Numbered from the stretch's first letter, positions 1 to 16,677 are shown. The stretch is 49,521 nucleotides of DNA from Alphaproteobacteria bacterium (GCA_017457425.1 JAFTHM010000055.1:1-49521); one strand, 5' to 3'. Translations and numbers: made by a program. The notes: generated from the letters alone by a model not told the origin.

Positions 1-300
1 ATTACTGGTTCCGGCCGTTGTTGTTCCTCCTTTACCCGAAGAAGAACCACGACCGGCACTCATACCGTCAGACAAAAAGTCCCGCAATTGAGTATTAGCT
101 TCGGATAACCAACTTTGGACCGTTTCTTCAACACCGCTCGAAATACGCTCAACCTGATTTTTCAAATCGGTAATGATTTGCCCACCCATTTGCAATAAAC
201 AAGGAATACCGCAAATAAAGGCATCGGCCTTTTTAACCGGTGCAATGACAACACCAACAGTCAAAGCAACCGCAGTTGTAAACAATAATACTTTCTTCAT
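1..300 (-). CDS. Secreted protein of unknown function; only the N-terminal 100 codons are in the window (gene continues past the left edge)
   Basis: ATG at 300..298, 9 nt downstream of AAGGAA. Frame is open to position 1. N-terminus MKKVLLFTTAVALTVGVVIAPVKKADA looks like a signal peptide, followed by FICGIPCLLQMGG and a Gly/Ser/Thr-rich stretch. Absent from the ORF track because there is no stop codon in the window. Confidence 0.6.
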   Translation of the reverse strand, partial: MKKVLLFTTAVALTVGVVIAPVKKADAFICGIPCLLQMGGQIITDLKNQVERISSGVEETVQSWLSEANTQLRDFLSDGMSAGRGSSSGKGGTTTAGTSN

Positions 301-320
301 GGCTGTTTTCCTTTCCCGTT

Positions 321-1769
321 TTATTTGTTGTCTTTTTTGTTATCTTTTTTATTGTCTTTTTCTTCCGGCTTATCTAACAATTTGATATCCGTATTGACAA
401 TACGTTGAATGCCTTCAAATTCCAATAACTGAATTTGCAATGCAATATCGGCCATCGCTTGTTTTGCCGTAGAAATCATAATCATTGTACTGACATTTAA
501 ATCATCAATCAAATTACATCCACTGGTCGGAGCGCTCGGAATACTCATCGCATCTTCAACCAAGTTGTGTTGTACACCAATGTTTAATGTCAACACATCT
601 GCCACCATATCAGCTAAATATTCATCTCGTTTCTTATGTATCTTTTCTTGTTCTTCGGCAGTTAAATCCTTTTCGTCCTTCACAAAGAATAAACTTTCCA
701 CATATGGTACAGCAGCATCCATCGTTTTTTTGGCGGCAGCATGCACCTTTTCCGGTTTAGCATCCAAATAATTCATTTTTAAAAAATCATATGCTTTATT
801 GGATTGTCTCGGATAAGAGGCCATCAATGCCGGACAGGAATCTATTGATGGATTCGTATCGGCATCCGGTGCCTCAGCCACCTCAGGACCTGCCGGTGTA
901 GATGGACGTGACCCGACAGCATCTAATTGTTTTTGTTTTTCGTCAGATACCTTATTATTGACAGCTGCCGTTTCGGCTTTAGCTGCTTTATCCGCTGCAT
1001 TTGATGCAATAAAACCGCCTTCCATAACCGGAATACCAACAGTTGGAGCACTCATAAAATCCGTTACGGCATCCATGGCAGCCCCCATGGATAAATTTGT
1101 GATTTGATCCCAACCAATGTACCCCAATCCCATTGTTAACAAGGATTGCGGATTATTCATCAATTCCATGGCACCAGTTAATTGAGCACCAACTTGAGAA
1201 CTTAAATTCATTACATCTGTCAGTCCGGCTCCTCCGGTTATGGCATTCAATGCATCGCTTTGAACACCGCCCAACATTGTGTCAACTTGAGAAGACAATG
1301 CCCCCATCTGATCCAACGATATATTTAACGAAGATATTGTATTTTTTAATTCGGAAATATTCCCTAGTCCAATGGCTTCTTGGGCTTTGCCGATGATATT
1401 GGAAGAACTGTCCGAAATAGCATTTCCCAACTGTGAAACTTGCTCTTGAAATTCTTGTGAAACAGCATCTTGTCCTGCCTCCAGTAAATTACCGGCCTCA
1501 TCTATGATATAGTTTTTATTCACCAATTGTTGTAATTGTTCAGGTGTCATACCCTTGTATTGATTCCCAATGGCATTAGACCATTCTTCTAAAATTTTGA
1601 CACCAGTTCCATCTGAGTAAGATTGATTTATTTCTCGTTGTATCCCTTCTAGTGTCGTCAAATTTTTTCCGCTCAAAACATTATTCACATTAATGTCTGC
1701 CGCATTTGCAATACCCGCAAAGGCAACAACTGCACAACTTGTCAATAAGAAAAATAACTGTTTATTCAT
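321..1769 (-). CDS. Secreted (possibly lipo-) protein of unknown function, 482 aa, with a C-terminal (KDNK)3 tail
   Basis: AGGAGG SD upstream of the ATG. N-terminus MNKQLFFLLTSCAVVAFAGIANA (possible LTSC lipobox or ANA/AD cleavage). A/Q/G/S-rich helical body. C-terminal module resembles those of the next three ORFs. Confidence 0.75.
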   Translation of the reverse strand: MNKQLFFLLTSCAVVAFAGIANAADINVNNVLSGKNLTTLEGIQREINQSYSDGTGVKILEEWSNAIGNQYKGMTPEQLQQLVNKNYIIDEAGNLLEAGQDAVSQEFQEQVSQLGNAISDSSSNIIGKAQEAIGLGNISELKNTISSLNISLDQMGALSSQVDTMLGGVQSDALNAITGGAGLTDVMNLSSQVGAQLTGAMELMNNPQSLLTMGLGYIGWDQITNLSMGAAMDAVTDFMSAPTVGIPVMEGGFIASNAADKAAKAETAAVNNKVSDEKQKQLDAVGSRPSTPAGPEVAEAPDADTNPSIDSCPALMASYPRQSNKAYDFLKMNYLDAKPEKVHAAAKKTMDAAVPYVESLFFVKDEKDLTAEEQEKIHKKRDEYLADMVADVLTLNIGVQHNLVEDAMSIPSAPTSGCNLIDDLNVSTMIMISTAKQAMADIALQIQLLEFEGIQRIVNTDIKLLDKPEEKDNKKDNKKDNK

Positions 1770-1781
1770 GGGACATCCTCC

Positions 1782-2531
1782 TTATTGTGCTTGATTACCT
1801 GATGAAGTGGCACCACCCGAAACATCAATGTCAGATAAATCTTTCGGTGCTTCATGCCCAATTAAAGCCTGAGCCGAAATCGTTTCTAACATCCGAGTAC
1901 GTAAGTGCATAACTTCTCCTTGTTTATGCATCATGACTAACTGTAATTTTGCCATATTATTCCACAATCCGATATGATCGGTTGCTTTAGCAACTTCCTC
2001 AGCCATCTTTTGATTATCTTCTGTCGCTTTTTCAGACGCCATAAATGACGCATTTGCCGCCGCATACCCATTTGATGTTACCCTTAACAACAATACATTT
2101 TGTTGATTGCGTGTCAATTTTTGTAATTCCGGCGTTTTAGACTTAATAAAAGCAATCTTCTTAATTTCTTCTTGAACAGCCTGAGAATCCGGCTCATCTG
2201 TTTCATTTTCCACCTTTAATACCTTCATAACATTTTCAGGTATCTCATATGGTTGATTTTCTGCCGGCGTTATTGAATTCACATCAGCTGCCTTCAATGC
2301 TTCAGACAAACTGGCTTCACTACCAATAGCCTGAGCTGTTTCAATTGTCTTTTTAACTTGTTCAGCAATTTCTTCTGCCGCTGCCTGAGCCTTCATCAAA
2401 TCCTTTACCAAGGTGATTGTTCCACCGATATCAAAGTTAATCGCGGCCCGTAGTGGCATAGCAAAACATGCCGTTCCCAACAAGGCAAGTGAAAAGACTT
2501 TTAAAAATGTTAATTTATGCGTCATGTTCAT
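1782..2531 (-). CDS. Secreted helical protein of unknown function, 249 aa
   Basis: AGGAGG SD. Signal-like KLTFLKVFSLALLGTACFAMPLRA. Only 12 nt from the downstream gene. Ends ...SSGNQAQ. Confidence 0.75.
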   Translation of the reverse strand: MNMTHKLTFLKVFSLALLGTACFAMPLRAAINFDIGGTITLVKDLMKAQAAAEEIAEQVKKTIETAQAIGSEASLSEALKAADVNSITPAENQPYEIPENVMKVLKVENETDEPDSQAVQEEIKKIAFIKSKTPELQKLTRNQQNVLLLRVTSNGYAAANASFMASEKATEDNQKMAEEVAKATDHIGLWNNMAKLQLVMMHKQGEVMHLRTRMLETISAQALIGHEAPKDLSDIDVSGGATSSGNQAQ

Positions 2532-2537
2532 ACCTCC

Positions 2538-3821
2538 TTATTGTGCTGTTTCACCTGTAGCCGGTGCTGTAGATGAACCGGACTGAGCCGTTGTATCAGT
2601 TGAGGCCGGAGCCGAACCGCCCCCCCCTAAATCTTCCTTAGACAGGACAGATGAAGTAGCGTCCCCTGTCCGTCTATTTACTTGTGTCCCAAAAGCTGTC
2701 AAATCCACAGCATAAACAGTTGAGGCATAGTTTTGAGCCTCTGCCGTCATAATGGATAGAGCCGATACCAACTGAATGGTTCCTCGTTCATCCGTTGCCT
2801 TTTCATTAAACAACTTTGTAATGGCTTCTTCTTGTTTCGGCAATCGTTGCTTTGTAACTTCTTGACGTATCCATGACATTGCCAACCCTTGAATACCCAA
2901 TTCTTTTTCAGCTTCTGTCTGCAACAACCTGATCTCTTCCAGTTGAGCCGTTGTCATTTTTAAAGCCTCTTCTTGTGTTTTAGGCAGTTGCATTTTTTCT
3001 TCAATCCGAGTACGCATTTCGGTAAACACTTTTTGTGCCTCGGCAAACTGAGCCGTAGAAGCATTACCCGTTCCATTAAACGCATCAGACCGATTCCCAT
3101 CAGGCCCCATAGACGTTGTTTGAACCGATGTGGTATTCATACCGGTACTTCCTTTTATACCCAACCCTTCCAATCCTTTTGATGGTTTGGAAGCGGCGCC
3201 TTGTTGTGTTTGTTTTGCTTTCGTCAATCCACTCAACAACCCTATAGCCTTTTTCGGATCATTTGCAATCTCTTTAATTTGACTTGCTGACAATTTGCCA
3301 CTCAACTGTTCGCCCAATAACTTTCGTAATTGGTCTTCACCCAATCCCTCTAATTTATCCAAGCCCATCTTTTTTAGCTTATCGGCATCTAAATTCATCA
3401 CATCATTTACTGACCACCCACCGATAATGTCTGTATTTAACCCCATATCTTTAAGCTTATCCAAATCAAAATCCATCAAATCTTGAGCCGACCAATCACC
3501 AACGATATTGGTTCCCAACACAGATTGTATTGTACCGTTTACTAAGCTATTTACTTTATTTTTAAATGATGTCAAATACACTTGAGGCAATTGCTGTAAA
3601 TCCGCAACCGCATTTTTAACGCCGGCTATACCATTTAACGCCGTTGTTTTTAATGTTTGTATTTCATTTAATCCCGTTTGCGCCACAGCCACGGCATTTT
3701 GTCCTTCAACCAACGCTTGTTGAACGTTTTGTTGAATGTCCGCAAACACCGGCGTCAATGCCCACACCGACGTATGAACAGCCATTAAAGGCAGAGCCAT
3801 ATATAATATCTTTTTCATCAT
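2538..3821 (-). CDS. Secreted protein of unknown function, 427 aa, with an internal tandem repeat
   Basis: GGGAGGTG SD. Signal-like MMKKILYMALPLMAVHTSVWA. Tandem GDWSAQDLMDFDLDKLKDMGL / GGWSVNDVMNLDADKLKKMGL repeat. Gly/Ser/Thr-rich tail ending ...GETAQ. Confidence 0.75.
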   Translation of the reverse strand: MMKKILYMALPLMAVHTSVWALTPVFADIQQNVQQALVEGQNAVAVAQTGLNEIQTLKTTALNGIAGVKNAVADLQQLPQVYLTSFKNKVNSLVNGTIQSVLGTNIVGDWSAQDLMDFDLDKLKDMGLNTDIIGGWSVNDVMNLDADKLKKMGLDKLEGLGEDQLRKLLGEQLSGKLSASQIKEIANDPKKAIGLLSGLTKAKQTQQGAASKPSKGLEGLGIKGSTGMNTTSVQTTSMGPDGNRSDAFNGTGNASTAQFAEAQKVFTEMRTRIEEKMQLPKTQEEALKMTTAQLEEIRLLQTEAEKELGIQGLAMSWIRQEVTKQRLPKQEEAITKLFNEKATDERGTIQLVSALSIMTAEAQNYASTVYAVDLTAFGTQVNRRTGDATSSVLSKEDLGGGGSAPASTDTTAQSGSSTAPATGETAQ

Positions 3822-3836
3822 GACACACCTCCCACT

Positions 3837-4451
3837 TTACTGTTGCGTAATATTGGATTGATGAAAACCATCCGATAATTGCATAATCGCAAACGTTGCG
3901 TTTAATCCCAAAGTTTTATTGACTTCGCCAAATTGACCTAACATGATACCGTTTAACACTTGAACATCTTCACGCAAGTTTTGAGCCGAATTCACAAATT
4001 TGAGCGCATTATCCCGCCGTTTATTAAAGTTTTCAATACCATTTTCCACCAATTTACCCAATCCCATTGCATAAGATACAGTTTGATCCATCAATGCCTT
4101 ACGATAAACGGCCATTTTTTCAATCTCCTCCATTGTCATTTCTTGTGCTTTTTTTTCATCTTTCGGAGGAAACAAAACACGTTTCAGTGTCGCAGCTGCC
4201 TTTTTAGGATCCTTAAACAACTCAGGTTTTAATCCGGCGGCCGGAATATTAATCGGAGACAATCCTAACGGAGCCAATGTATCCATACCCGTATCCAAAA
4301 TATCACCCGATGGGGAAATCATACGAGAGTGTGTTATACCTTCTACTTCACTCCATGAATACTCTAATTCTGGCATATCCGCCGCAAAAACAGGAGATAC
4401 ACCCAAAATCGGTATCAATAAAAACGTATAAAATAAAGAACGAAATTTCAT
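3837..4451 (-). CDS. Secreted protein of unknown function, about 204 aa from the internal start
   Basis: The track ORF is 3837..4532. The ATG at 4451 has AGGAGG 8 nt upstream and gives the signal-like N-terminus MKFRSLFYTFLLIPILGVSPVFA. The longer start would overlap the upstream gene. Ends ...NITQQ. Confidence 0.7.
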   Translation of the reverse strand: MKFRSLFYTFLLIPILGVSPVFAADMPELEYSWSEVEGITHSRMISPSGDILDTGMDTLAPLGLSPINIPAAGLKPELFKDPKKAAATLKRVLFPPKDEKKAQEMTMEEIEKMAVYRKALMDQTVSYAMGLGKLVENGIENFNKRRDNALKFVNSAQNLREDVQVLNGIMLGQFGEVNKTLGLNATFAIMQLSDGFHQSNITQQ

Positions 4452-4518
4452 GTCAAACCTCCTGTTTTTTTGACTTTCAGAAAGGAAACATCCTTTCCAT
4501 TGTTTTATTTTGATGTTC

Positions 4519-5922
4519 TTATGACCCACCACATCCTTGGGTAATCATTGCTTTACGTTGTGTACATCTGCTGGCAAAGGCCGTACACAACCGTTGACTG
4601 GAAAAAGCAGAAACTGCCCCACTGCAATTACCCGCAGCCAAATTTTGCCATACCGGTGTTCTGTTAGGTAAAAAGGCTTTGTTATTCCCCTTAACGGCAC
4701 CGGCACCGGCTTGGTAAGAAACATCCACAACAAATACTTGATGCAACAACGGCAAGTCCGTAAAACGTTTGCCCAATTGTTTCCAATAGTTAGCCCACAC
4801 CTTTACGTGCCCCTTACAAATTTCGTCAAACGACGCCGATTGCATTGCCTGATCCGAAATACGTCTGCCATTAAACATATTTTTCCAATGATTTCCACCA
4901 CAGGAATAATTGTAGATTTGTTTGGCTCCGGCCGGATCACTTTTCAACTTACCGCGACAGGTAACATGCAAATTATAAATTTGTCTTAAATCCGCCTCTT
5001 GCGTTTGTTTATCCAACATATTCCCTTGGGCATCTACATATTCCATAGGCATAAATGTTTGACGCATTGTTTGAAAATCTTTACCGAGCAAACTTCCCAC
5101 GCCAATTGTCGGCCAACAGACCGTATCAAGATACAACCAAGGACAAGTTCCCTCTAATTTCGGTCCGACAGCTTGCAACCAATAATTAATCGCTTGAGAA
5201 TAATCCTCGCCATTAATACTGCATTGTCCCATACGTCCGTCCATATTACCGACCGGACCGAATGAAGCGGTTAAATCCGTTTCTGCATCCAACAACCCTT
5301 CGGTTGCAGCCGTTTGAGCCTTTGACGTTCCAACAGCAGCCGCACTTTGCGCCATATTAGTCGGCATTAAAACCGGATAACCGCCACCGCCCAATCCGCT
5401 GAGCAAGCTATCCAATCCTAAATCATCAAATGCCATTCCCATAAGTTGTTTAATTTCGGGCGACATATCTTTTAAAAAACTCATCCCAACATTGCCCAAA
5501 TTTTTCAAATTCGTCAAATCAGATAATGAATTCATATTTTTAAAATTTTTAAAGATAGAGCCAATTTGTGTCACATTGGCATTTCCAAACATCTTGCCAT
5601 AACCAACTGCCACATTACCAAAATCAACAGCGCCACCTGATCCGGTTAAAATATTTGTGACACCGTCAACGGCATTAACAGCTATTTCGGCATTGGCACT
5701 AATTGAATCTGCCGTTCCCAAAGGACCGATAGATGGTGTCAAATCGATTTTATCCGTCACTCCAGCAATGCCTTCAGCTACATCAAAAACTTCCCCCGTT
5801 AACTTTCCGGCTCCGGTTTGCGCACTCGGCTTATCACCCGCCCAAACCTCTGACGCAGATAATCCGAAACATAAAGCAACAGCGCAAACGCCGGCTCCCA
5901 TTATCATTTTTAAATTTATCAT
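4519..5922 (-). CDS. Secreted two-domain protein: Gly/Asn/Ala-rich N-terminal region plus a C-terminal GH24 (T4/lambda-type) lysozyme-like muramidase domain
   Basis: AGGAGG SD. Signal-like MIMGAGVCAVALCFGLSASEVWA. The motif LEGTCPWLYLDTVCWPTIGVG matches the T4-lysozyme catalytic pattern E-G-x5-Y-x-D-x5-T-I-G-x-G with identical E-to-D (9) and D-to-T (6) spacing. The C-terminal half carries 10 Cys. Confidence 0.8.
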   Translation of the reverse strand: MINLKMIMGAGVCAVALCFGLSASEVWAGDKPSAQTGAGKLTGEVFDVAEGIAGVTDKIDLTPSIGPLGTADSISANAEIAVNAVDGVTNILTGSGGAVDFGNVAVGYGKMFGNANVTQIGSIFKNFKNMNSLSDLTNLKNLGNVGMSFLKDMSPEIKQLMGMAFDDLGLDSLLSGLGGGGYPVLMPTNMAQSAAAVGTSKAQTAATEGLLDAETDLTASFGPVGNMDGRMGQCSINGEDYSQAINYWLQAVGPKLEGTCPWLYLDTVCWPTIGVGSLLGKDFQTMRQTFMPMEYVDAQGNMLDKQTQEADLRQIYNLHVTCRGKLKSDPAGAKQIYNYSCGGNHWKNMFNGRRISDQAMQSASFDEICKGHVKVWANYWKQLGKRFTDLPLLHQVFVVDVSYQAGAGAVKGNNKAFLPNRTPVWQNLAAGNCSGAVSAFSSQRLCTAFASRCTQRKAMITQGCGGS

Positions 5923-5965
5923 GGCAACCTCCTTAAAAAATGGGTTTTCCTATTCCTTAAGTATT

Positions 5966-5993
5966 ATTATACCATCAAAACATAATCACGCAA
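5966..5993 (-). promoter_or_regulatory. Candidate sigma-70 promoter for the secreted-protein operon
   Basis: Minus strand reads TTGCGT-16 nt-TATAAT with an extended -10 (TGGTATAAT), about 40 nt upstream of the ATG at 5922. Confidence 0.4.
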
Positions 5994-8048: not shown

Positions 8049-11000
8049 CTAAATTCCCCCTAATGTTTTTAATTCAAATTTAACCATGAATGACGTTTCC
8101 CCTGTGTAATCACGGTCTTGAGTAAATTCTTTGTTTAAATCAAAAATAACGGCCAAACATTCATTATCATATCTCAAAATAGCTCCCGCCTCAACCGGAC
8201 CGCCGTTTTCAGCTAAATCATACCGATATAAACCGGATAACGACCACTGACGAGATAATCTGGATGAACCGAACAGTAAAATTTCTTCACGAGACGGATA
8301 AAAATTATTCCCAATCCATGTGTCTTTTAAATAAACATAATCAACACCTAATCTCAACGGATCGCCTCCACCCGTTAAAGTAATTTCATTTTTCTTCGGT
8401 GTTAATTTGTTTTCATCTAACCGAAACCGATAAGCCAATGAGATGTTCTTATAATCAATACTCATCCGACCAACATAATCGGAAAAGTTTTTGTCATCCC
8501 CCAATAAATTACCCATAACATCATCACGTTTAAAGCGATAAGATTGACCAAACAGTGTTGAAAATGCAGTGTTATGATTTGTGTAAACAGACCACTCAGC
8601 CCCATAATTCAACCGAGTACCCACCTCAACCCGATCATATCCCGAGAACCGATTGCGAGAAAATAAATTTGAATCATCAAAATCAAATACCAAACTGTCC
8701 ATATCCGGTATTTTATCGGCGTTTATATCTCTGTTAGGAGTCATTACCGCCATTACAATTGGCTTAAAAACTTGAGTGGTATTTGTCGTCGCCATTCCTA
8801 TCGGATAACTGGCCTCAACAGACAAATTCGGATAAACTCGTCCGGTTGTATAAGTATCATCAAGGCGGCGCATATTAAACCCATATCGGCCGGTGTCAAT
8901 ATTATATCCATCAAACCGAACAGTTCCTATAATATCATAAACAGCTCCGTAAGAACTGACATAAGGCAAATGGAATCCTTGCGTTAAAGATAATCTGTCT
9001 GATTTAAACCGTTCACGATTATGAATAATGGCACTGTTGACTTCGGTAAAGGCATACAATCCATTTGTCATTAACGGCATTGTTTGATAATTCATTTGCA
9101 ATTTCGGAATGATAATCGGCTGACTGCGAGAACTGATACCCGCCCGTAAACTTTGGAAAGACAAGCCCATTAAATTAACATAATTACGATTGCCAAATCG
9201 TTCGGCGGCAATATGAGAGGTTAAATACGATTGATTGTCATCAATACCAGAAATTTTATATTTTCTGAAATAGGTATCACTGGATGAGCGAAACAACTTA
9301 CCATTTAAACGCCAATTGTCATTTACATCATACTCAAAGTTGGCTTTAATATGCCCTTGGTAATCTTTTTTATCATCATCATCTTTTGTTCCGCTGAGTT
9401 GTAAATTAACGGCTCCTCGTTTAAATACCCCTTGATAATCGGCGACAACCAATGGTAAATGAGACACAGAAATGGTTGGTGTAATTAACAAATTTTGATT
9501 ATCTGCCACATCAATAAATAATGGTAGTTCTATCCCATTACCCATTGTGGAAGAATGGGCCAAAGACGGGGATAATAATCCCGTTTTACGTTTAACTGTA
9601 TGATCCGGCGTTCTTAAATACGGGAAATAAAAAACGGGAATATCTTTTACATCCAAAAATGAATGCGTAAAACTGATTGTTTTATCATTTTTATCGTGTT
9701 TCATACGATTGGCACGCAATTGCCACAGAGGTGATTTTCCCTGACATCTTTCACAGGGCGTATAGGTTAATTGACGCAAATACAAAACCGTTCCGTTTTG
9801 TGTCCGTTTCATAGACTCAGCCGCCACATATGTTCCGTCAATAATCTGCAAGGAAATTTGCTGTGCCACTGCATTTTTAAGACCATCACTGAGTTCGGCA
9901 TTTTGAACTGTCGTAACCGTTCCGTCCGGCGATGTCATTATGGCTTCATGTGGAATATGGGACGTTCCCTTAGTCCGATTAAACACTAATTTGTCCGTTT
10001 TTAAAACTGTCCCATTTTGTTCAATGATAACATTACCAAGAGCCGTCATTTCATTTTTGTTTTTATTGTATTCAATGGCATCGGCTTCAAAATTAACAGG
10101 CGCATCTTTATCCACATTCAATTCAATCGGAGCCGCCATAACAGATCCACTTAACAATAAAGCACCGATAAAGGCTCCGATTTTAAAAGACCCAATCTTA
10201 AATTTTTTACCCTTTAACAAAATCAAATATACAACCACAATCGGCACCAAGACATTTAAAACCATTAACGGCATTAACCATAAATTTTTGGCCGTCATAT
10301 TTTCAAAAGCCAAAGCCAAAGATTGTACAACTAATGTTGCCATGACAACCATATTAACCTGTCCCACTTGTCCCCGACGATTGTAATAACCGGCCAACAC
10401 ACCAAACATAGCCAAAAACACAAAAGATACATTATACAACGGTTGCAACAAACGCTTCATGGCTTCTACCTTAAATTTACGATATCTGGACACAGATCCC
10501 GCTTCGGTTTCAGAGGCCTTTAACAATTGTCCCAGCGAATATTCCCGCACATCATTTGTGCGAGTTGCCTTTTTAGACTCATCCCCAAAGCTCATCGTAT
10601 ATTTGTCAAATTTTAAAACAGAAAATTGTTTTGTTTGTCTGTCAAATTCCTGACGCATCCCATTTTCAAATTGAACCTGCGTTTCATATTCCCCTTGGAA
10701 TACCACTCCTTGCTCGGCAATTAACGAAGCGGGTCGTCCAGAATCCTTGGTATCATACACAATCACACCCTTTAATACGCCATCGGTTAATCTTTCACGA
10801 ATATAAATCGTTAAATTTTTAAAGGAATTAAACTGGCCGTCTTGCAACATCACATGAGATAAATTATTTTTAATTTGCCATTTCATTTCACGCATTTGTG
10901 TATTAGCATACGGTACAACAAACAAAGAAAAGGCATATCCCAATACCACCAAAATACCAGCCAAAATAAGTGGCGCCCGCATAATTTGACCATTATCCAT

Positions 11001-11279
11001 ACCCACCGCTTTCATAACCATCAATTCTTTATCCGATTGCATACGAGTATACACAAATAATGTTACGGCAAACAACGCCAAAGGCGATAAGATTTGCACA
11101 AAATTCGGCAAAACCAATAAAGTCATTTTAACAAATACACCAACCGAAACCCCTTTGGTAACAATCATATCAATCATTTTAAGAGATTGCGTCAACCACA
11201 CCAATGTGGTCATGCTGACCAACACCAATGTAAAACCGACAAGCAGTTGTTTTAATATGTATTTATTTAAAATTTTCAT
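8049..11279 (-). CDS. lptD: Single uninterrupted frame encoding an LptF/LptG-family permease (first ~360 aa) joined to LPS-assembly protein LptD (OstA; last ~700 aa)
   Basis: The N-terminal part is YjgP/YjgQ-like (MKILNKYILKQLL..., six hydrophobic segments). It is followed by KIGAFIGALLLSGSVMA/AP, which looks like an internal signal peptide, then an OstA N-terminal domain and beta-barrel region. No stop codon separates the parts. Start taken at the ATG at 11279 to avoid overlap with xerD. Confidence 0.7.
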   Translation of the reverse strand: MKILNKYILKQLLVGFTLVLVSMTTLVWLTQSLKMIDMIVTKGVSVGVFVKMTLLVLPNFVQILSPLALFAVTLFVYTRMQSDKELMVMKAVGMDNGQIMRAPLILAGILVVLGYAFSLFVVPYANTQMREMKWQIKNNLSHVMLQDGQFNSFKNLTIYIRERLTDGVLKGVIVYDTKDSGRPASLIAEQGVVFQGEYETQVQFENGMRQEFDRQTKQFSVLKFDKYTMSFGDESKKATRTNDVREYSLGQLLKASETEAGSVSRYRKFKVEAMKRLLQPLYNVSFVFLAMFGVLAGYYNRRGQVGQVNMVVMATLVVQSLALAFENMTAKNLWLMPLMVLNVLVPIVVVYLILLKGKKFKIGSFKIGAFIGALLLSGSVMAAPIELNVDKDAPVNFEADAIEYNKNKNEMTALGNVIIEQNGTVLKTDKLVFNRTKGTSHIPHEAIMTSPDGTVTTVQNAELSDGLKNAVAQQISLQIIDGTYVAAESMKRTQNGTVLYLRQLTYTPCERCQGKSPLWQLRANRMKHDKNDKTISFTHSFLDVKDIPVFYFPYLRTPDHTVKRKTGLLSPSLAHSSTMGNGIELPLFIDVADNQNLLITPTISVSHLPLVVADYQGVFKRGAVNLQLSGTKDDDDKKDYQGHIKANFEYDVNDNWRLNGKLFRSSSDTYFRKYKISGIDDNQSYLTSHIAAERFGNRNYVNLMGLSFQSLRAGISSRSQPIIIPKLQMNYQTMPLMTNGLYAFTEVNSAIIHNRERFKSDRLSLTQGFHLPYVSSYGAVYDIIGTVRFDGYNIDTGRYGFNMRRLDDTYTTGRVYPNLSVEASYPIGMATTNTTQVFKPIVMAVMTPNRDINADKIPDMDSLVFDFDDSNLFSRNRFSGYDRVEVGTRLNYGAEWSVYTNHNTAFSTLFGQSYRFKRDDVMGNLLGDDKNFSDYVGRMSIDYKNISLAYRFRLDENKLTPKKNEITLTGGGDPLRLGVDYVYLKDTWIGNNFYPSREEILLFGSSRLSRQWSLSGLYRYDLAENGGPVEAGAILRYDNECLAVIFDLNKEFTQDRDYTGETSFMVKFELKTLGGI

Positions 11280-11304
11280 GTTTTTGTGGTATTTTAATCC
11301 TTTT

Positions 11305-12201
11305 TTATTTACCACTATACGCCAAAGGATGAGATTTTTCAACTGTCTTTTTTAATCTATCCTCTAAAATATGCGTATAAATTTCCGTCGTAGCGATATC
11401 GGCATGACCTAACATTTTTTGAACAGAACGCAAATCGGCGTCATGTGCCACCAAATGCGACGCAAAGGAATGACGGAAAACGTGCGGAGAAACTTTCATC
11501 ACATCCACACGAGCTTTCAGCGCCGTTTTTTTCAGCTGATTAAAAAATGCCACTCTTGTTAAATGTCCTTCTTTGGATTTAGACGGAAATAACCATTTAC
11601 TGGGACGAGAAATAAAACATTCTCTGTGAATTAACCATTCTTCCAACGCTTCAGCGGCCGGTTCTCCCAATGGCACAATCCTTTCTTTTCGTCCCTTTCC
11701 AACAATCGTTATTGTTTTTTTATCTTCGGGAATAGCCGACAACGGCAATCCGACCAATTCGCTGACACGCATACCGGTTGCATATAAAATTTCAAGCAAT
11801 GCTTTTAGTCGTACATCTGATTTGGCCTCATTAATCAAATCGGCAATTTCACGTTCGGATAAATATTTCGGCAATGCCTTACCTATTTTGGGGGATACCA
11901 AATAATCTGCCGGATTTTTCTTTAGCATATCCTCTGAAAACAAATACCGATAAAATTCACGAATGGCCGCCAAACGACGTGCTTGAGTTTTTTCTGATAA
12001 TTTATTTTTGGAGGCCAATGTATGCATATATCCTTTTAGGTCATCATAACCAGCTTTAATCAACGATACATGGCGTGTTTTTAAATAAGCCTCTAAATCC
12101 AACAAATCACTTTCATATGCCACAACCGTTTTGGGACTAGCCCCTCGTTCAGCCACCATAATTTCTAAAAAAGCCGTAATGTGTTTACTGACTTGTTTCA
12201 T
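11305..12201 (-). CDS. xerD: Tyrosine site-specific recombinase XerD (XerC/XerD family)
   Basis: Core-binding and catalytic domains are present, with ATGMRVSEL, HVFRHSFASHL and LGHADIATTEIYTHI motifs (R..HxxR..Y). Housekeeping context; no flanking repeats seen. Confidence 0.8.
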   Translation of the reverse strand: MKQVSKHITAFLEIMVAERGASPKTVVAYESDLLDLEAYLKTRHVSLIKAGYDDLKGYMHTLASKNKLSEKTQARRLAAIREFYRYLFSEDMLKKNPADYLVSPKIGKALPKYLSEREIADLINEAKSDVRLKALLEILYATGMRVSELVGLPLSAIPEDKKTITIVGKGRKERIVPLGEPAAEALEEWLIHRECFISRPSKWLFPSKSKEGHLTRVAFFNQLKKTALKARVDVMKVSPHVFRHSFASHLVAHDADLRSVQKMLGHADIATTEIYTHILEDRLKKTVEKSHPLAYSGK

Positions 12202-13733
12202 GGATATACATACCGTTCTAAAATTAAGCGACGCATTAAAGATTTTGGCGCTATCTCAGACAATCCGGCAATTATGTTCGGTTCCACTCTCATATTTGAT
12301 TGCCATAATTTAATGGCATATAAGACAGCTTCCCCCGACCGAGAAGAGGATATTAATCCCTGCAAAGCCGTCTGCACTAAGGGTATATATCGTTTTGATG
12401 CCGCCATATGATTTAACACCTCTGTCCAATTGGTACTATCAGCTTCAGTTCCGATTTTATCCACAAAAGACGCACAATATGGATTTTTATTTTTCTGACA
12501 AAATGACAGGCCTTTGTCTATCTGTTTAGGCATTCCGCCACCTAATTGTTGCATTAACGGCTCTAAAAAGACTGCTTGCATTTTTGATGGGGCGTCCGTG
12601 CTTTTTTGTAAAATCTGATACCATGCATACGCTAAATCCGCATTATCCGATAACGCATATACCTGAACGGCATTAAAGGCCACTTCTTTTGTCGCTTCAG
12701 ACGGGGTAATTGTATCCAAAAAGGGACGCATAACAGGGGCCAACATCAAAAACAACCCATCGGTTCGGGCCGTTTCTAAATACTCATTTATCGTCCTGAA
12801 TATTGCGGTATCTTCTGTACCAGCCTTAATTTTTTGATACAGCTTTGCCCGCGAAACAGCCTTATTTTCTAAAGTATCATCCTTAACTTGCCCATATAAA
12901 TCATCTAACCGATTTACGTGATTACGCTCGGCCATTTCTAACCGAATATGTAAGGGGACGGACGGTAAATCAGATAACATTTTTTGATAGGCAATCGGTA
13001 CCATTATTTTAGACCAATCCACATGATTACCAAGCGCCCCAAGCAACGGCAAATGACGTATTTTTATATTTTTACCGTCAAACACCACTTCATTATTCGC
13101 AAATAATTTTTGAGCCAAAATCTGAGTCGTTTCATCCAATTCATTATTTTCCAAGCGGGTTGCAAAAATAAGTTCGGCCCCTGTTTTATCACCGTTTGCC
13201 ACTGCACAACTTAAGCGCATATCCTCGGCCATTTGTGTTAATTCCGGCGTTTTAATCATAAACTCACAGGCTTGTTTAGCTTGGCCGGATAAAAATAAAG
13301 CCAATGCTTTTAATTTCAAAACATCTGGCGTTTGATGCGTGGGAGGAACCAAATTTGCCAATGTCAAAACGTCATCAAATCGCCCTAACCTCATCAACAC
13401 GTCCATACGAAACGTCAGTGGCAACGCCTCCTCAGGTGAGGTTTGCCTGAGCGTCATTTGCCCAATTATATCACGCATTGCTGGGGTTAAAGGGGCTTGA
13501 ATAATATCCTTAATTAACGTTTTCAAGGACTCTGTATTACTCTTTCCCCAAATAGTTGCCGGAACATAATTGTGGGTGCCTAAATGATTAATCCCCAAAG
13601 TCGGTAAGTTTTGTATATGAACAGAAGGCAGTAAACTTTCCGCCATAACACCACCAGAAAACAAAGCCCCAAAAAGCGCCACAAAAATATGGCTTTTATT
13701 TATTAACGGCATTCGGCACAATCTTTTCAACAT
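12198..13733 (-). CDS. Secreted protein of unknown function, 511 aa, helical-repeat-like
   Basis: Long ORF with a 4-nt overlap onto the xerD start. Signal-like IFVALFGALFSGGVMA. The true start may be the ATG at 13712 (MPLINK...). No family recognised. Confidence 0.65.
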   Translation of the reverse strand: MLKRLCRMPLINKSHIFVALFGALFSGGVMAESLLPSVHIQNLPTLGINHLGTHNYVPATIWGKSNTESLKTLIKDIIQAPLTPAMRDIIGQMTLRQTSPEEALPLTFRMDVLMRLGRFDDVLTLANLVPPTHQTPDVLKLKALALFLSGQAKQACEFMIKTPELTQMAEDMRLSCAVANGDKTGAELIFATRLENNELDETTQILAQKLFANNEVVFDGKNIKIRHLPLLGALGNHVDWSKIMVPIAYQKMLSDLPSVPLHIRLEMAERNHVNRLDDLYGQVKDDTLENKAVSRAKLYQKIKAGTEDTAIFRTINEYLETARTDGLFLMLAPVMRPFLDTITPSEATKEVAFNAVQVYALSDNADLAYAWYQILQKSTDAPSKMQAVFLEPLMQQLGGGMPKQIDKGLSFCQKNKNPYCASFVDKIGTEADSTNWTEVLNHMAASKRYIPLVQTALQGLISSSRSGEAVLYAIKLWQSNMRVEPNIIAGLSEIAPKSLMRRLILERYVYP

Positions 13734-16649: not shown

Positions 16650-16677
16650 AAAAAGAGAGTTTTTACTCTCTTTTTTT
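16650..16677. terminator. Bidirectional intrinsic terminator between convergent genes
   Basis: AAAAGAGAGT-TTTT-ACTCTCTTTTTTT: a 7-bp stem flanked by an A-run and a T-run. Confidence 0.6.

What the first reader, a model, noticed from the sequence alone, without database searches (positions are those of the whole stretch)
1..5993. Operon of six signal-peptide proteins led by a secreted GH24 muramidase: candidate uncharacterised envelope/surface system
Seen directly: six consecutive minus-strand ORFs (4519..5922, 3837..4451, 2538..3821, 1782..2531, 321..1769 and a partial one at 1..300). Each starts with a positively charged and then hydrophobic signal-like N-terminus. Each is preceded by a strong AGGAGG-type SD. 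Gaps between them are only 6 to 67 nt, and a single candidate promoter lies at 5966..5993. Apart from the lysozyme domain of the first gene I recognise no family. The other proteins are A/Q/E/K/G/S-rich and helical-looking, with Gly/Ser/Thr-rich tails. The operon continues beyond the left window edge.

Inference: a peptidoglycan-cutting enzyme co-transcribed with five or more exported structural-looking proteins is the pattern seen where a machine or fibre must cross the sacculus, as with secretion-system lytic enzymes plus pilus or tip subunits. Here no ATPase, secretin or known pilin is present, so this may be a new accessory module or a new kind of surface assembly.
Basis: partly seen in the sequence, partly recalled or inferred. 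Interest (0 to 1): 0.8.

Follow-up and report, generated by a model that had tools for sequence, protein, structure and literature searches.

The report
Variable front of a type IV secretion operon
The six exported proteins are the fast-evolving front end of a type IV secretion system operon in an uncultured gut alphaproteobacterium: a T4-lysozyme-like cell-wall cutter followed by several very divergent copies of what look like the pilus-tip protein VirB5, so it is an unusual variant of a known machine and not a new one.

Summary
Six co-directional minus-strand ORFs with signal-peptide-like N-termini, Shine-Dalgarno sites and short gaps lie downstream of folD.

- **Context.** In the same species (L003) and about 70 related gut or rumen alphaproteobacterial MAGs, the array continues into virB8, a virB7-like lipoprotein gene, virB8, virB9, a giant virB10 and virB11. 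In a sister clade the equivalent array sits between virB4 and virB8, the slot of virB5 to virB7.
- **P1.** It has a low-confidence N-terminal half and a confidently modelled C-terminal T4-lysozyme fold. The catalytic Glu-x8-Asp-x5-Thr spacing is present. No sequence family model is matched.
- **P2 to P5.** They form one clade-restricted paralogous family. P6's family shows only slight member overlap with it.
- **VirB5 link.** Several sub-threshold signals agree: TrwJ as best PDB hit, PF07996 and DUF4141 near-hits, VirB5-like mature N-termini and operon position. I call it probable, not proven.
- **Variability.** The array is the most variable part of the locus: 82-85% DNA identity against 95.6% in the flanks, within one species.
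- **Lysozyme distribution.** Among held loci it occurs only in a small sub-clade.

Verdict: a new variant of a known kind (a VirB/rvh-like T4SS). Interest is moderate.

The parts
5966..5993 (-). Candidate sigma-70 promoter in the 86-nt folD-P1 spacer: TTGCGT, 16 nt, then an extended -10 TGgTATAAT.
   Evidence: Read directly. It was not picked up by the consensus scan because the -35 matches only 3 of 6 positions. Function is inferred, not shown.
4519..5922 (-). P1, 467 aa. Signal peptide (about aa 1-28), a low-complexity and poorly modelled N-terminal region (aa 29-231), and a Cys-rich C-terminal T4-lysozyme-fold domain (aa 232-467).
   Evidence: Only 10 homologues were found among 5.8 billion clusters.
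4522..5229 (-). T4-lysozyme-like (GH24-like or pesticin-like) muramidase domain of P1, with E257, D266 and T272 in the E-x8-D-x5-T spacing of T4 lysozyme E11/D20/T26.
   Evidence: - AF2 per-block pLDDT 71-94 for this domain.
- Foldseek top PDB hits are almost all T4 lysozyme (probability about 1.0, target TM mostly 0.55-0.66 for isolated lysozyme chains).
- BFVD hits are phage lysozymes and a pesticin domain.
- BLASTP against T4 lysozyme gives 12/25 identical residues over the catalytic segment.
- E257 is invariant in 11 sequences.
3837..4451 (-). P2, 204 aa. Exported protein that matches only the C-terminal half of the array family profile.
   Evidence: - Family HMM positions 134-268.
- hhalign to the P3 family 94.6% and to the P5 family 91.6%.
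- In L006 it is fused behind the P1 N-terminal region.
2538..3821 (-). P3, 427 aa. Exported array-family member with the mature N-terminus LTPVFADIQQNVQQ, which resembles VirB5, an internal tandem repeat, and a Gly/Ser/Thr-rich tail.
   Evidence: The iterated P3-family profile against plasmid VirB5 proteins gives 95% hhalign probability over the N-terminal 66 columns, signal peptide included.
1782..2531 (-). P4, 249 aa (probably 247 aa, starting at 2525). Exported array-family member of typical VirB5 size; mature N-terminus AINFDIGGT.
   Evidence: -.
- Mature P4-family profile against mature VirB5 profile: 52% local over 180 columns, 66% global.
- The AF2 model has low confidence (pLDDT 47) but is all long helices.
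321..1769 (-). P5, 482 aa. Exported array-family member with a long variable N-terminal part, the shared C-terminal helical domain and a KDNK-repeat tail.
   Evidence: hhalign: P4-P5 87.6%, P2-P5 91.6%.
1..300 (-). P6, N-terminal 100 aa of a protein of about 325-350 aa (Q6 family). Mature N-terminus FICGIPCLL, followed in relatives by a Gly/Ser-rich stretch.
   Evidence: -.
- Full-length orthologues: L003:15597-16574 and L049:5693-6745.
- The family is present in 66 loci.
- The family is fused to the next gene family (Q7) in L079.

Best explanation
The six ORFs are the promoter-proximal, rapidly diversifying module of a chromosomal VirB-type type IV secretion system (T4SS). Its core gene order resembles the Rickettsiales rvh system. 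The host is an uncultured gut or rumen alphaproteobacterium.

**Shown**
- In the same species and in about 70 related species the array is followed directly by one more conserved exported protein (Q7), then virB8, a virB7-like lipoprotein gene, virB8, virB9, a giant virB10 and virB11.
- In a sister clade the equivalent array lies between virB4 and virB8.

**Inferred for P1**
- P1 is exported by Sec.
- Its T4-lysozyme-fold domain cuts the glycan strands locally so the apparatus or pilus can pass the sacculus. It would thus be a functional analogue of VirB1, built on a different lysozyme fold.

**Inferred for P2 to P6**
- They are very divergent VirB5-like subunits.
- After Sec export they would compete for, or combine in, the pentameric cap. 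That cap sits on the periplasmic stalk and ends up at the tip of the VirB2 pilus.
- This would give the cell a repertoire of alternative tip or adhesin surfaces.

**Variability**
The elevated divergence of exactly this segment points to diversifying selection and allele exchange on surface-exposed parts. The Bartonella Trw system, with its multiple variant TrwJ (VirB5) copies, is the precedent.
For: **Context**
- Same gene order with VirB8/VirB8/CagX by precomputed Pfam in L001, L002 and L003.
- Full downstream map in L049: VirB8 (PF04335) twice, a lipobox-bearing small ORF, CagX, a TrbI-containing 2354-aa protein, and a T2SSE-family VirB11.
- The layout is conserved across 79 loci from gut or rumen MAGs.
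- L003 is the same species as the window: XerC 99%, LptD 99%, FolD 98.6% amino-acid identity.
- Sister-clade operon: VirB2 x2-3, a VirB3-like gene, VirB4 (PF03135), array, VirB8, a small ORF, VirB8, VirB9.

**P1**
- Confident C-terminal model.
- T4 lysozyme as top structural match in PDB and BFVD.
- Catalytic E/D/T spacing, with 12/25 identity to T4 lysozyme.
- Signal-peptide-like N-terminus and 12 Cys, which suits a periplasmic protein.

**VirB5-like family**
- P2 to P5 fall into one family by iterated HMM and hhalign.
- A family profile finds TrwJ (R388 VirB5, 7o3v) as best PDB hit, E=5e-4.
- PF07996 (VirB5) hits at E=6.8e-5 and E=1.4e-4 (the latter 22.7 bits, cut-off 24.7).
- DUF4141 hits up to 28.8 bits, cut-off 30. 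DUF4141 genes lie among the tra genes, near traG and traJ, in Bacteroides conjugative transposons (PMC10434189).
- My own 9-sequence VirB5 HMM hits two members, one over its full length.
- Mature-versus-mature hhalign gives 52-79%.
- A VirB5-type mature N-terminal motif occurs in 17/250 array proteins, 3/564 other ORFs and 6/9 VirB5 references.

**Hypervariability**
- Window against L003: dS 0.5-1.1 and dN 0.05-0.15 in the array; dS 0.15-0.25 and dN 0.003-0.016 in the flanks.
- DNA identity drops from 95.6% to 82-85% near the start of P1.
- The same dip is seen in other close genome pairs.

**Role of VirB5 and VirB1**
PMC12857230. Bartonella multicopy trwJ: PMC2610397.
Against: - No window protein reaches any curated family threshold.
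- Every VirB5 signal is sub-threshold. The TrwJ hit and the 95% hhalign value both include the signal peptide, which inflates scores.
- With signal peptides removed, probabilities fall to 52-79%.
- The strict N-terminal motif is present in only about 7% of family members.
- The P4 structure model is unreliable (pLDDT 47) and its fold search was uninformative.
- A profile search of 1.84 billion representatives did not bridge to recognised VirB5 proteins.
- P3 and P5 are twice the size of a normal VirB5.
- P2 carries only the C-terminal half of the family profile.
- P1's N-terminal half matches nothing.
- D266 and T272 are replaced in one or two P1 homologues.
- The lysozyme is absent from most related arrays, so it is not a core assembly factor.
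- No polytopic VirB6 or VirD4 was seen in any held locus, so completeness of the machine is not established. The window clade's own VirB2, VirB3 and VirB4 were also not seen.
- The window itself ends before the virB8-11 genes. The continuation is inferred from a same-species relative.
Confidence: 0.65

Rival explanations
1. The array proteins are Sec-exported cargo of the T4SS and not structural subunits. They would work like pertussis toxin subunits, which cross the inner membrane by Sec, are encoded upstream of ptl in one operon, and are pushed out by a T4SS lacking VirD4 and VirB5. P1 would then be an exported muramidase toxin aimed at competitors. The others would be secreted host- or competitor-directed factors under diversifying selection.
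For: - All array proteins have signal-peptide-like N-termini.
- No VirD4 gene was seen in any held locus.
- The proteins are hypervariable.
- P1 weakly resembles the pesticin toxin domain.
- The Ptl precedent, and the idea that the toxin may stand in for VirB5 at a pilus-like tip, are described in PMC12857230.
Against: - In the sister clade the array sits between virB4 and virB8, in the structural-gene slot, not upstream of the whole operon.
- The weak sequence signals point specifically to VirB5, TrwJ and DUF4141.
- No immunity-like small gene follows P1.
- VirD4 could simply be encoded elsewhere, as in split rvh systems (PMC2653234).
Confidence: 0.17
2. The array proteins are clade-specific accessory parts of the periplasmic or outer-membrane core complex, comparable to Cag3, CagM and CagT of Helicobacter, which decorate VirB7/9/10 homologues. 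They would not be homologous to VirB5. The similarity to VirB5 would come from signal peptides and helical composition.
For: - The system has a giant VirB10 (2354 aa) with beta-flower repeats, recalling the expanded Cag-type core.
- VirB5 signals are all sub-threshold and weaken once signal peptides are removed.
- Q7 is conserved, exported and matches nothing known.
Against: - Core-complex parts are normally conserved, whereas these are the most variable genes of the locus.
- Copy number and sizes vary between species.
- The mature N-terminal motif is enriched after signal-peptide cleavage and so does not depend on the signal peptide.
- The PF07996 hit in L063 covers residues 107-237, far from the signal peptide.
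Confidence: 0.12
3. The operon is an independent, previously unknown envelope or surface-fibre system that merely lies next to T4SS genes.
For: None of the six proteins matches a curated family. The family is restricted to this clade.
Against: - Adjacency to virB8-11 on the same strand, mostly with small gaps, is conserved in about 70 species.
- In the sister clade the array is embedded between virB4 and virB8.
- No assembly ATPase, usher, secretin or sortase belongs to the array itself.
Confidence: 0.04
4. The region is a prophage or lysis-cassette remnant, suggested by the phage-type lysozyme.
For: The P1 C-terminal domain has the phage T4 lysozyme fold.
Against: - There are no PHROG matches for P1 to P5. 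Q6 and Q7 have only weak matches (E 1e-4 to 5e-3); those of Q6 fall mainly on its Gly/Ser-rich stretch.
- There is no holin, integrase-flanked island or phage structural gene.
- GC content is uniform with the flanks.
- The chromosomal position after folD is conserved in 38 loci.
Confidence: 0.02

Closest known systems
VirB5 / TrwJ / TraC minor pilin (Pfam PF07996), the pentameric cap of the T4SS stalk and pilus tip
   Same: - Sec signal peptide and mostly helical composition.
- P4 and many family members are 230-280 aa.
- A VirB5-type mature N-terminus ([IV]P[VI]xD followed by an amphipathic helix) occurs in a subset.
- Encoded after virB4 in the sister clade.
- TrwJ is the best PDB hit, and there are sub-threshold PF07996 hits.
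   Different: - No member passes the Pfam threshold.
- Five or six very divergent paralogues per genome where one is usual.
- Some are 400-630 aa with extra variable regions.
- P2 has only the C-terminal half.
- The fold is not confirmed.
Bartonella Trw T4SS with tandem variant copies of trwJ (VirB5) and trwL (VirB2)
   Same: - An alphaproteobacterial, host-associated T4SS with several variant copies of the putative tip protein in tandem.
- Multiple VirB2 genes in the sister clade.
- Fast evolution of these parts (PMC2610397).
   Different: - In Trw the copies are recent duplicates amplified together with trwI and trwH (VirB6, VirB7).
- Here the paralogues are ancient (10-20% identity), no VirB6 is co-amplified, and a lysozyme-domain protein is added.
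Rickettsiales vir homologue (rvh) T4SS
   Same: - The order virB8, virB7-like, virB8, virB9, virB10, virB11.
- Chromosomal location among housekeeping genes.
- In the window clade, separation from virB2-4 (PMC2653234).
   Different: - The rvh system is defined by having no VirB5 analogue, by duplicated VirB4 and VirB9, and by multicopy VirB6 (PMC11077975).
- Here there is a multi-gene putative VirB5 array and only one VirB9 in the locus.
- VirB10 is giant.
- The host is a gut alphaproteobacterium not labelled as Rickettsiales.
VirB1 (specialised lytic transglycosylase, SLT/GH23 fold) and AtlA of the gonococcal T4SS
   Same: - A Sec-exported peptidoglycan-cleaving enzyme encoded in a T4SS operon and dispensable in many lineages (PMC12857230).
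- AtlA is a precedent for a non-VirB1-type enzyme serving a T4SS (PMC4207684). Its lambda-endolysin relationship is my own recollection of Kohler et al. 2007.
   Different: - P1 has a T4-lysozyme-type fold with the E/D/T triad, not an SLT domain.
- It is Cys-rich.
- It carries a 200-aa N-terminal region that is fused to a P2-like protein in L006.
Phage T4 lysozyme (GH24) and the pesticin C-terminal domain
   Same: The fold and the catalytic segment E-G-x4-[IL]-Y-x-D-T-x4-T-I-G-x-G-x-L-L.
   Different: - No significant profile match to PF00959 or to any PDB sequence.
- About 70 extra residues and 12 cysteines.
- The context is a secretion system, not a phage or a bacteriocin.
Bordetella ptx-ptl operon
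   Same: Several Sec-signal proteins are encoded at the head of an operon that continues into T4SS genes. No VirD4 is nearby (PMC12857230).
   Different: - There is no similarity to toxin subunits.
- In the sister clade the array is internal to the virB gene order.

Membership tests
VirB5/TrbJ family (PF07996) | Match to the family profile above the curated threshold | tested here: not met
   No hit for any window protein. Two of 95 family members hit at E=6.8e-5 and E=1.4e-4 (the latter 22.7 bits, cut-off 24.7).
VirB5/TrbJ family (PF07996) | Sec signal peptide followed by a mature N-terminus of the [IV]P[VI]xD type and an amphipathic helix | tested here: inconclusive
   - Signal-peptide-like N-termini in all six proteins.
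- P3 LTPVFAD, P4 AINFD and P6 FICGIPC are only approximate matches.
- The strict motif occurs in 17/250 array proteins, 3/564 controls and 6/9 VirB5 references.
VirB5/TrbJ family (PF07996) | Elongated three-helix-bundle fold with a small appendage (TraC, TrwJ) | tested here: inconclusive
   The AF2 model of P4 has pLDDT 47. It shows only long helices (35-71, 134-181, 186-226). Foldseek was uninformative.
VirB5/TrbJ family (PF07996) | Gene located in a virB-type operon downstream of virB4 | tested here: met
   - In the sister clade (L079, L093-L098) the array follows virB4 directly.
- In the window clade it precedes virB8.
VirB5/TrbJ family (PF07996) | Localisation at the stalk cap or pilus tip | not testable with these tools
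   Needs immuno-EM or cryo-ET.
GH24 / T4-type lysozyme | Sequence-profile membership (PF00959 or CAZy GH24) | tested here: not met
   - No PF00959 hit; Pesticin C-terminal only at E=0.12.
- No significant PDB sequence hit.
GH24 / T4-type lysozyme | T4 lysozyme fold | tested here: met
   - Per-block pLDDT 71-94 for aa 232-467.
- Top PDB matches are almost all T4 lysozyme: probability about 1.0, target TM mostly 0.55-0.66 for isolated lysozyme chains, though E is only about 0.03 for the full-length query.
- BFVD matches are lysozymes.
GH24 / T4-type lysozyme | Catalytic Glu, Asp and Thr with the spacing E-x8-D-x5-T | tested here: met
   - E257, D266 and T272 align with E11, D20 and T26.
- E is invariant in all 11 sequences.
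- D is replaced in two homologues (N in P0007, G in P0010) and T in one (A in P0007).
GH24 / T4-type lysozyme | Muramidase activity on peptidoglycan | not testable with these tools
   Needs a zymogram or muropeptide analysis.
VirB1 (specialised lytic transglycosylase) | SLT (GH23) domain | tested here: not met
   No SLT family hit. The fold is T4-lysozyme-like. P1 is at most a functional analogue.
VirB1 (specialised lytic transglycosylase) | Periplasmic export and encoding within a T4SS gene cluster | tested here: met
   Signal-peptide-like N-terminus. P1 is the first gene of the cluster that continues into virB8-11 in relatives.
Rickettsiales vir homologue (rvh) T4SS | Duplicated virB8 flanking virB7, followed by virB9, virB10 and virB11 | tested here: met
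   L001, L003 and L049: VirB8 (221 aa), a small lipoprotein, VirB8 (239 aa), CagX, TrbI, VirB11. This was seen in relatives, not in the window itself.
Rickettsiales vir homologue (rvh) T4SS | No VirB5 analogue | tested here: inconclusive
   The array is probably VirB5-like. If so, this hallmark is violated.
Rickettsiales vir homologue (rvh) T4SS | Duplicated virB4 and virB9, and multicopy virB6 | not tested
   - Only one VirB9 homologue per held locus.
- No polytopic VirB6 in held loci.
- The rest of the genomes could not be fetched.
Bartonella Trw-type amplified pilus module | Tandem, recently duplicated trwJ-trwI-trwH (VirB5-VirB6-VirB7) units and multicopy trwL | tested here: not met
   - The paralogues share only 10-20% identity.
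- There is no VirB6 or VirB7 between them.
- Multiple VirB2 genes exist in the sister clade.
- The system may work like Trw but is not a member of that type.

The most novel reading that the evidence does not exclude
The array encodes a set of Sec-exported proteins that share a VirB5-type docking module and carry different 'payload' regions. They would be loaded one at a time onto the stalk or pilus tip of a T4SS for which no coupling protein was seen. In this reading P1 is a tip-presented or piston-expelled muramidase that attacks the cell wall of a target bacterium, as the T4 tail-spike lysozyme or lysozyme-bearing T6SS spikes do. P1's N-terminal region is fused to a family member in L006. 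The other proteins would be exchangeable adhesins or toxins. This would be a contact-dependent delivery mode for periplasmic cargo by a T4SS that generalises the pertussis-toxin case.
Probability: 0.12. Interest if true: 0.8.

Novelty: new variant of a known kind. Interest (0 to 1): 0.45.

Why it matters
- **An undescribed T4SS layout.** A conserved chromosomal T4SS is present in at least about 80 species-level genomes of uncultured gut and rumen Alphaproteobacteria (human, ruminant, rabbit). I found no paper describing it with the one literature search I ran for it. Its core gene order resembles the Rickettsiales rvh system, which is currently treated as a hallmark of Rickettsiales and is defined partly by lacking VirB5.
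- **Possible bearing on rvh evolution.** A relative with rvh-like core order plus a multi-gene VirB5-like array, multiple pilins and a giant VirB10 would bear on how the rvh system evolved. It would also bear on what these gut bacteria do to their hosts or neighbours.
- **A candidate specificity determinant.** The hypervariable array is the obvious candidate for the host- or partner-specificity determinant.
- **An alternative VirB1 analogue.** The T4-lysozyme-fold protein adds a second fold to the list of wall-opening enzymes recruited by Gram-negative T4SSs.
- **A limit on the claim.** None of this is a new kind of machine.

Tried and rejected
- **Exact-sequence look-up of P5** to recover the window's own contig: not on record.
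- **Pfam, NCBIfam and PHROGs on the proteins themselves:** no significant family. The weak PHROG tape-measure and virion-protein hits of Q6 fall mainly on its Gly/Ser-rich stretch, so I rejected them.
- **AF2 of P4** with a 19-sequence alignment: pLDDT 47, with a meaningless fold search (UvsY, designed helical bundles).
- **Profile of the P4 family against 1.84 billion representatives:** only 18 hits, all family members, none with a Pfam label. No transitive bridge to VirB5 was obtained.
- **PDB profile searches for the Q6 and Q7 families:** nothing credible. The PDCD10 and multicystatin hits were rejected as chance or repeat matches.
- **hhalign of a motif-selected subfamily against VirB5:** only 23% local and 54% global.
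- **hhalign of the P1 N-terminal region** against all array families and VirB5: nothing.
- **An apparent P1-P2 homology** (98.8% hhalign): rejected as an artefact of the L006 fusion protein sitting in the P1 alignment.
- **Q7 as a candidate VirB6 or second VirB9:** no transmembrane segments beyond the signal peptide and no match to the CagX protein in the all-against-all BLAST.
- **R388 by accession BR000038:** not in the plasmid collection. It was retrieved as NC_028464 through a protein search instead.
- **VirB4 of the window's own clade:** not reached. The 120 listed VirB4 hits all share 67-70% (one 88%) identity with the L079 query, and the three looked up all lie in the sister-clade operon.
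- **Literature search** for RF32-type gut Alphaproteobacteria with T4SS: no paper.

Full report
**1. The observation**

The region 1..5993 contains six consecutive minus-strand ORFs:
- P1, 4519..5922, 467 aa
- P2, 3837..4451, 204 aa
- P3, 2538..3821, 427 aa
- P4, 1782..2531, 249 aa
- P5, 321..1769, 482 aa
- P6, the first 100 codons of a sixth ORF at 1..300

Each is preceded by a GGAGG-type ribosome-binding site. The intergenic gaps are 67, 15, 6, 12 and 20 nt.

Each product begins with one or two K/R residues, then a hydrophobic stretch. Read by eye, an Ala-x-Ala-type site follows. No lipobox is present. A crude signal-peptide regex flags 300 of 320 unique family members, against 0 of 68 VirB11 homologues. 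SignalP itself was not available.

I make two small corrections. P4 probably starts at its second ATG (2525), judged from SD spacing and the 247-aa homologues. The proposed promoter (TTGCGT, 16 nt, TGgTATAAT at 5966..5993) is present but has a weak -35, so the consensus scan did not list it. That scan found promoter-like sites at or below chance level. It listed no terminator-like site between the genes on the coding strand.

GC content is uniform with the flanks. The upstream neighbours are folD, surA and a fused lptF/G-lptD gene. Every other ORF scanned in the window is housekeeping, ankyrin-repeat or without a family. The housekeeping set includes xerC, pnp, truB, rbfA, infB, nusA, rimP, ftsK, kdtA, lpxK, lpxL, lexA and NAD kinase. 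No further secretion genes appear.

**2. Where the operon goes**

None of the six proteins reaches significance in Pfam, NCBIfam or PHROGs. P1 has only ten homologues among 5.8 billion protein clusters, all from uncultured alphaproteobacterial MAGs.

Looking up the contigs that encode three of those homologues gave syntenic loci. L003 shares 96-99% amino-acid identity with the window in XerC, LptFG-LptD, SurA and FolD, so it is the same species. There, folD is followed by:
- the six homologues
- one further exported protein of about 490 aa (Q7)
- VirB8 (PF04335), a small ORF, VirB8 again, and CagX/VirB9

The fully held locus L049 completes the picture. The small ORF is a lipobox-bearing VirB7-like peptide. 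VirB9 is followed by a 2354-aa protein with nine beta-flower repeats and a C-terminal TrbI (VirB10) domain. A 329-aa T2SSE-family ATPase (VirB11) comes next.

Scanning one genome per GTDB species with this VirB9 returned 79 loci. Almost all are labelled uncultured Alphaproteobacteria, from human, ruminant and rabbit gut. The layout is kept in most of the loci mapped:
- folD
- four to six exported proteins
- a Q7 homologue
- virB8, a virB7-like gene and virB8
- virB9, virB10 and virB11

folD directly precedes the array in 38 held loci.

**3. A sister clade fixes the position of the array**

In L079 a VirB4 (PF03135) lies directly upstream of the array. I used that VirB4 to find relatives and then their contigs. 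This gave a colinear operon in L093-L098:
- two or three TrbC/VirB2 pilin genes
- a 96-aa two-TM VirB3-like gene
- VirB4 (810 aa)
- three exported proteins
- a 1235-aa Q7-family protein
- VirB8, a small ORF, VirB8 and VirB9

The array therefore occupies the slot that virB5, virB6 and virB7 hold in canonical virB operons.

Several of these sister-clade proteins have mature N-termini very like VirB5. Examples are QFAVFDASNIASAIE, LLPTIDAGAIAEG, LPKIDLGGSAAKI and GIPTIDGLTDAG. Compare GIPVFDGTRALDF in TrwJ and GVPVVDTQNIAQNIQQL in a Dinoroseobacter VirB5.

**4. What P1 is**

An AF2 model built on the 11-sequence alignment is disordered or of low confidence for residues 1-231. It is confident (per-block pLDDT 71-94) for residues 232-467.

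- Foldseek against the PDB returns T4 lysozyme entries almost exclusively. Probability is about 1.0 and target TM mostly 0.55-0.66 for isolated lysozyme chains. The E-values of about 0.03 are weak because the query includes the disordered half.
- BFVD returns phage lysozymes and a pesticin-domain protein.
- The alignment shows EG-x4-LY-x-DT-x4-TIGVG-x-LL. BLASTP against T4 lysozyme gives 12/25 identities, pairing E257/D266/T272 with the catalytic E11/D20/T26.
- E257 is invariant. D266 and T272 are replaced in one or two homologues.
- At sequence level nothing is significant.

P1 is therefore a T4-lysozyme-fold, GH24-like domain and not a recognised GH24 member.

The domain has 12 cysteines and follows a signal peptide, which suits a periplasmic enzyme.

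Among the held loci it occurs only in the window lineage and four relatives: L001/L002/L049, L003, L004 and L007. Most of the 38 arrays with folD directly upstream lack it. In L006 the P1 N-terminal region (47% identity over residues 1-231) is fused directly to a P2-like sequence, with no lysozyme in between.

I infer that P1 is a lineage-specific functional analogue of VirB1. VirB1 is normally an SLT-type lytic transglycosylase and is often dispensable (PMC12857230). AtlA of the gonococcal T4SS is a precedent for a different wall enzyme recruited by a T4SS (PMC4207684).

**5. What P2 to P6 are**

Iterated HMM searches within the held loci merge the P2, P3, P4 and P5 groups into one family. 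It has 129 members in 54 loci, all on the operon strand upstream of virB8. The P6 group overlaps it only slightly.

hhalign on signal-peptide-trimmed ortholog alignments gives these probabilities:

| Pair | Probability |
|---|---|
| P2-P3 | 94.6% |
| P2-P5 | 91.6% |
| P4-P5 | 87.6% |

The typical member is 200-300 aa.

The link to VirB5 rests on several independent but individually sub-threshold results:
- A 95-member family profile finds TrwJ, the VirB5 of R388, as its best PDB hit. E is 5e-4, and the aligned stretch includes the signal peptide.
- Scanning members singly against Pfam gives PF07996 (VirB5) for two of them. One is L063:2843-3610, residues 107-237, at 22.7 bits against a cut-off of 24.7.
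- The same scan gives DUF4141 for four members, the best at 28.8 bits against a cut-off of 30. DUF4141 genes lie among the tra genes, near traG and traJ, in Bacteroides conjugative transposons.
- An HMM I built from nine annotated plasmid VirB5 proteins hits two array proteins, one over its full length.
- Mature-against-mature profile comparison gives 79% (C-terminal helix) for the whole family. For the P4 group it gives 52% local over 180 columns and 66% global.
- A strict VirB5-type N-terminal motif is found in 17/250 array proteins, 3/564 other ORFs and 6/9 VirB5 references.

Against this:
- The P4 structure model was unusable.
- A profile search of 1.84 billion representatives found only 18 family members and no bridge to recognised VirB5.
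- A motif-selected subfamily scored only 23-54%.

Taken with the operon position (section 3), I rate 'divergent VirB5-like subunits' at roughly two in three.

**6. Hypervariability**

Between the window and the same-species locus L003, nucleotide identity is 95.6% over 10 kb of flank, up to the signal-peptide codons of P1. It falls to 82-85% over the array. Part of the P1 N-terminal region is not alignable at all.

Codon-based estimates:

| Region | dS | dN | dN/dS |
|---|---|---|---|
| Flanking genes | 0.15-0.25 | 0.003-0.016 | 0.02-0.06 |
| Array genes | 0.5-1.1 | 0.05-0.15 | 0.06-0.24 |

Raised dS as well as dN suggests exchange of old, divergent alleles and not only relaxed constraint.

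The same dip over the array, relative to both flanks and the virB8-11 core, is seen in other close genome pairs: L030/L031, L025/L026 and L042/L044.

This is the pattern expected for surface-exposed parts under diversifying selection. It parallels the variant TrwJ and TrwL copies of the Bartonella Trw system (PMC2610397; PMC2653234).

**7. Mechanism proposed**

Shown:
- Gene order, family relations and context.
- The lysozyme fold and catalytic motif.
- Hypervariability.

Inferred:
- All products cross the inner membrane by Sec.
- P1 locally cleaves peptidoglycan where the apparatus is built.
- The VirB5-like paralogues assemble, alone or mixed, as the cap on the periplasmic stalk. As VirB2 polymerises beneath them, they are carried to the pilus tip. 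This follows the R388 model summarised in PMC12857230.
- The several divergent copies provide alternative adhesive or contact surfaces.

Not resolved:
- Whether the system has a VirB6 or a VirD4. None was seen in any held locus.
- What the conserved exported Q7 protein does.
- What the substrates are.

**8. Rivals**

- **Sec-dependent cargo in the manner of pertussis toxin, about 0.17.** It fits the signal peptides, the missing VirD4 and the pesticin-like toxin fold. It fits less well with the internal operon position and the VirB5-specific signals.
- **Clade-specific core-complex accessories of the Cag3/CagM type, about 0.12.** It fits the giant VirB10 but not the extreme variability.
- **An independent new surface system, about 0.04**, and **a prophage remnant, about 0.02.** Both are contradicted by synteny and family scans.

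**9. Comparison and novelty**

The core order (virB8, virB7, virB8, virB9, virB10, virB11, chromosomal, split from virB2-4 in the window clade) resembles the Rickettsiales rvh system. However, rvh is defined partly by lacking VirB5 and by duplicated VirB4/VirB9 and multicopy VirB6 (PMC11077975). The first would be violated here. The others could not be tested.

The multi-copy putative tip proteins recall Bartonella Trw, but these are ancient paralogues with no co-amplified VirB6 or VirB7.

The wall enzyme is a T4-lysozyme-fold analogue of VirB1.

I therefore file the finding as a new variant of a known kind (a VirB-type T4SS), not as a new surface machine. Interest is moderate. It is an apparently undescribed, widespread T4SS layout in gut Alphaproteobacteria with an unusual hypervariable module, but the general principle is known.

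Noticed in passing
window 8049-11342 (minus strand): A single 1097-aa ORF joins an LptF/LptG-type inner-membrane permease domain to LptD_N and LptD outer-membrane domains. The same fusion (1076-1087 aa) is called in L001, L003 and L004 with Pfam PF03739 + PF03968 + PF04453. A protein joining an inner-membrane and an outer-membrane component of the LPS transport bridge is unusual.
   Followed up: partly
L049:11825-18889 (relatives; left of the window): The VirB10 homologue is a giant (2354 aa). It has nine Bflower_2 (5-fold beta-flower) repeats ahead of the TrbI domain. In more distant loci (L080-L083) it is split into two ORFs of about 1100-1500 aa each.
   Followed up: partly
L006:1253-2593: A 446-aa protein consists of the P1 N-terminal region (47% identity to P1 residues 1-231) fused to a P2-like sequence (49% identity to P2 residues 43-198), with no lysozyme domain. 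Either the lysozyme was inserted in the window lineage or it was deleted here. This fusion created a false P1-P2 profile match.
   Followed up: yes
L079:5103-7871; L093:16390-20097; L080:2593-8160: The Q6 family (the window's partial sixth ORF) and the next gene family (Q7) are fused into one 922-aa protein in L079. Q7-family proteins grow to 1235-1855 aa in the sister clades and begin with a VirB5-like GIPTIDG N-terminus.
   Followed up: partly
L093:1-8469, L095 and L097 (sister clade): Divergently next to the T4SS operon lies a pilus or secretion cluster with a secretin, TcpQ, PilO-like protein and T2SSE ATPase. The T4SS operon there starts with two or three TrbC/VirB2 genes. One of these is a 530-aa protein with a C-terminal pilin domain (L097:7630-9222).
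   Followed up: no
window 45321-46139 (minus strand): A 272-aa ankyrin-repeat protein lies among housekeeping genes. Ankyrin-repeat proteins are typical T4SS effectors in Rickettsiales, Legionella and Coxiella (my own knowledge). It is therefore a candidate substrate of this system.
   Followed up: no
window 12198-13733 (minus strand): A 511-aa ORF between xerC and the shikimate kinase region has no Pfam match. It evolves very fast: 48% amino-acid identity between L001 and L003, where neighbours keep 82-91%.
   Followed up: no
window about 3312-3500 (within P3): P3 contains a short internal tandem repeat, W-S-x-x-D-[LV]-M-[DN]-[FL]-D-x-D-K-L-K-[DK]-M-G-L, read from the translation. P5 ends in a KDNK repeat and P3/P4 in Gly/Ser/Thr-rich tails.
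   Followed up: no
window 16676-18819 (minus strand): A UDP-GlcNAc 2-epimerase gene and a NeuB-family gene lie side by side. This suggests synthesis of a sialic-acid-like (nonulosonic) sugar for the cell surface.
   Followed up: no
L007, L047, L043 (record titles): Three contigs carrying this alphaproteobacterial T4SS locus are deposited under the titles 'uncultured Lactobacillales bacterium' and 'Holdemanella biformis'. These are probably mis-binned or mislabelled MAG contigs.
   Followed up: no
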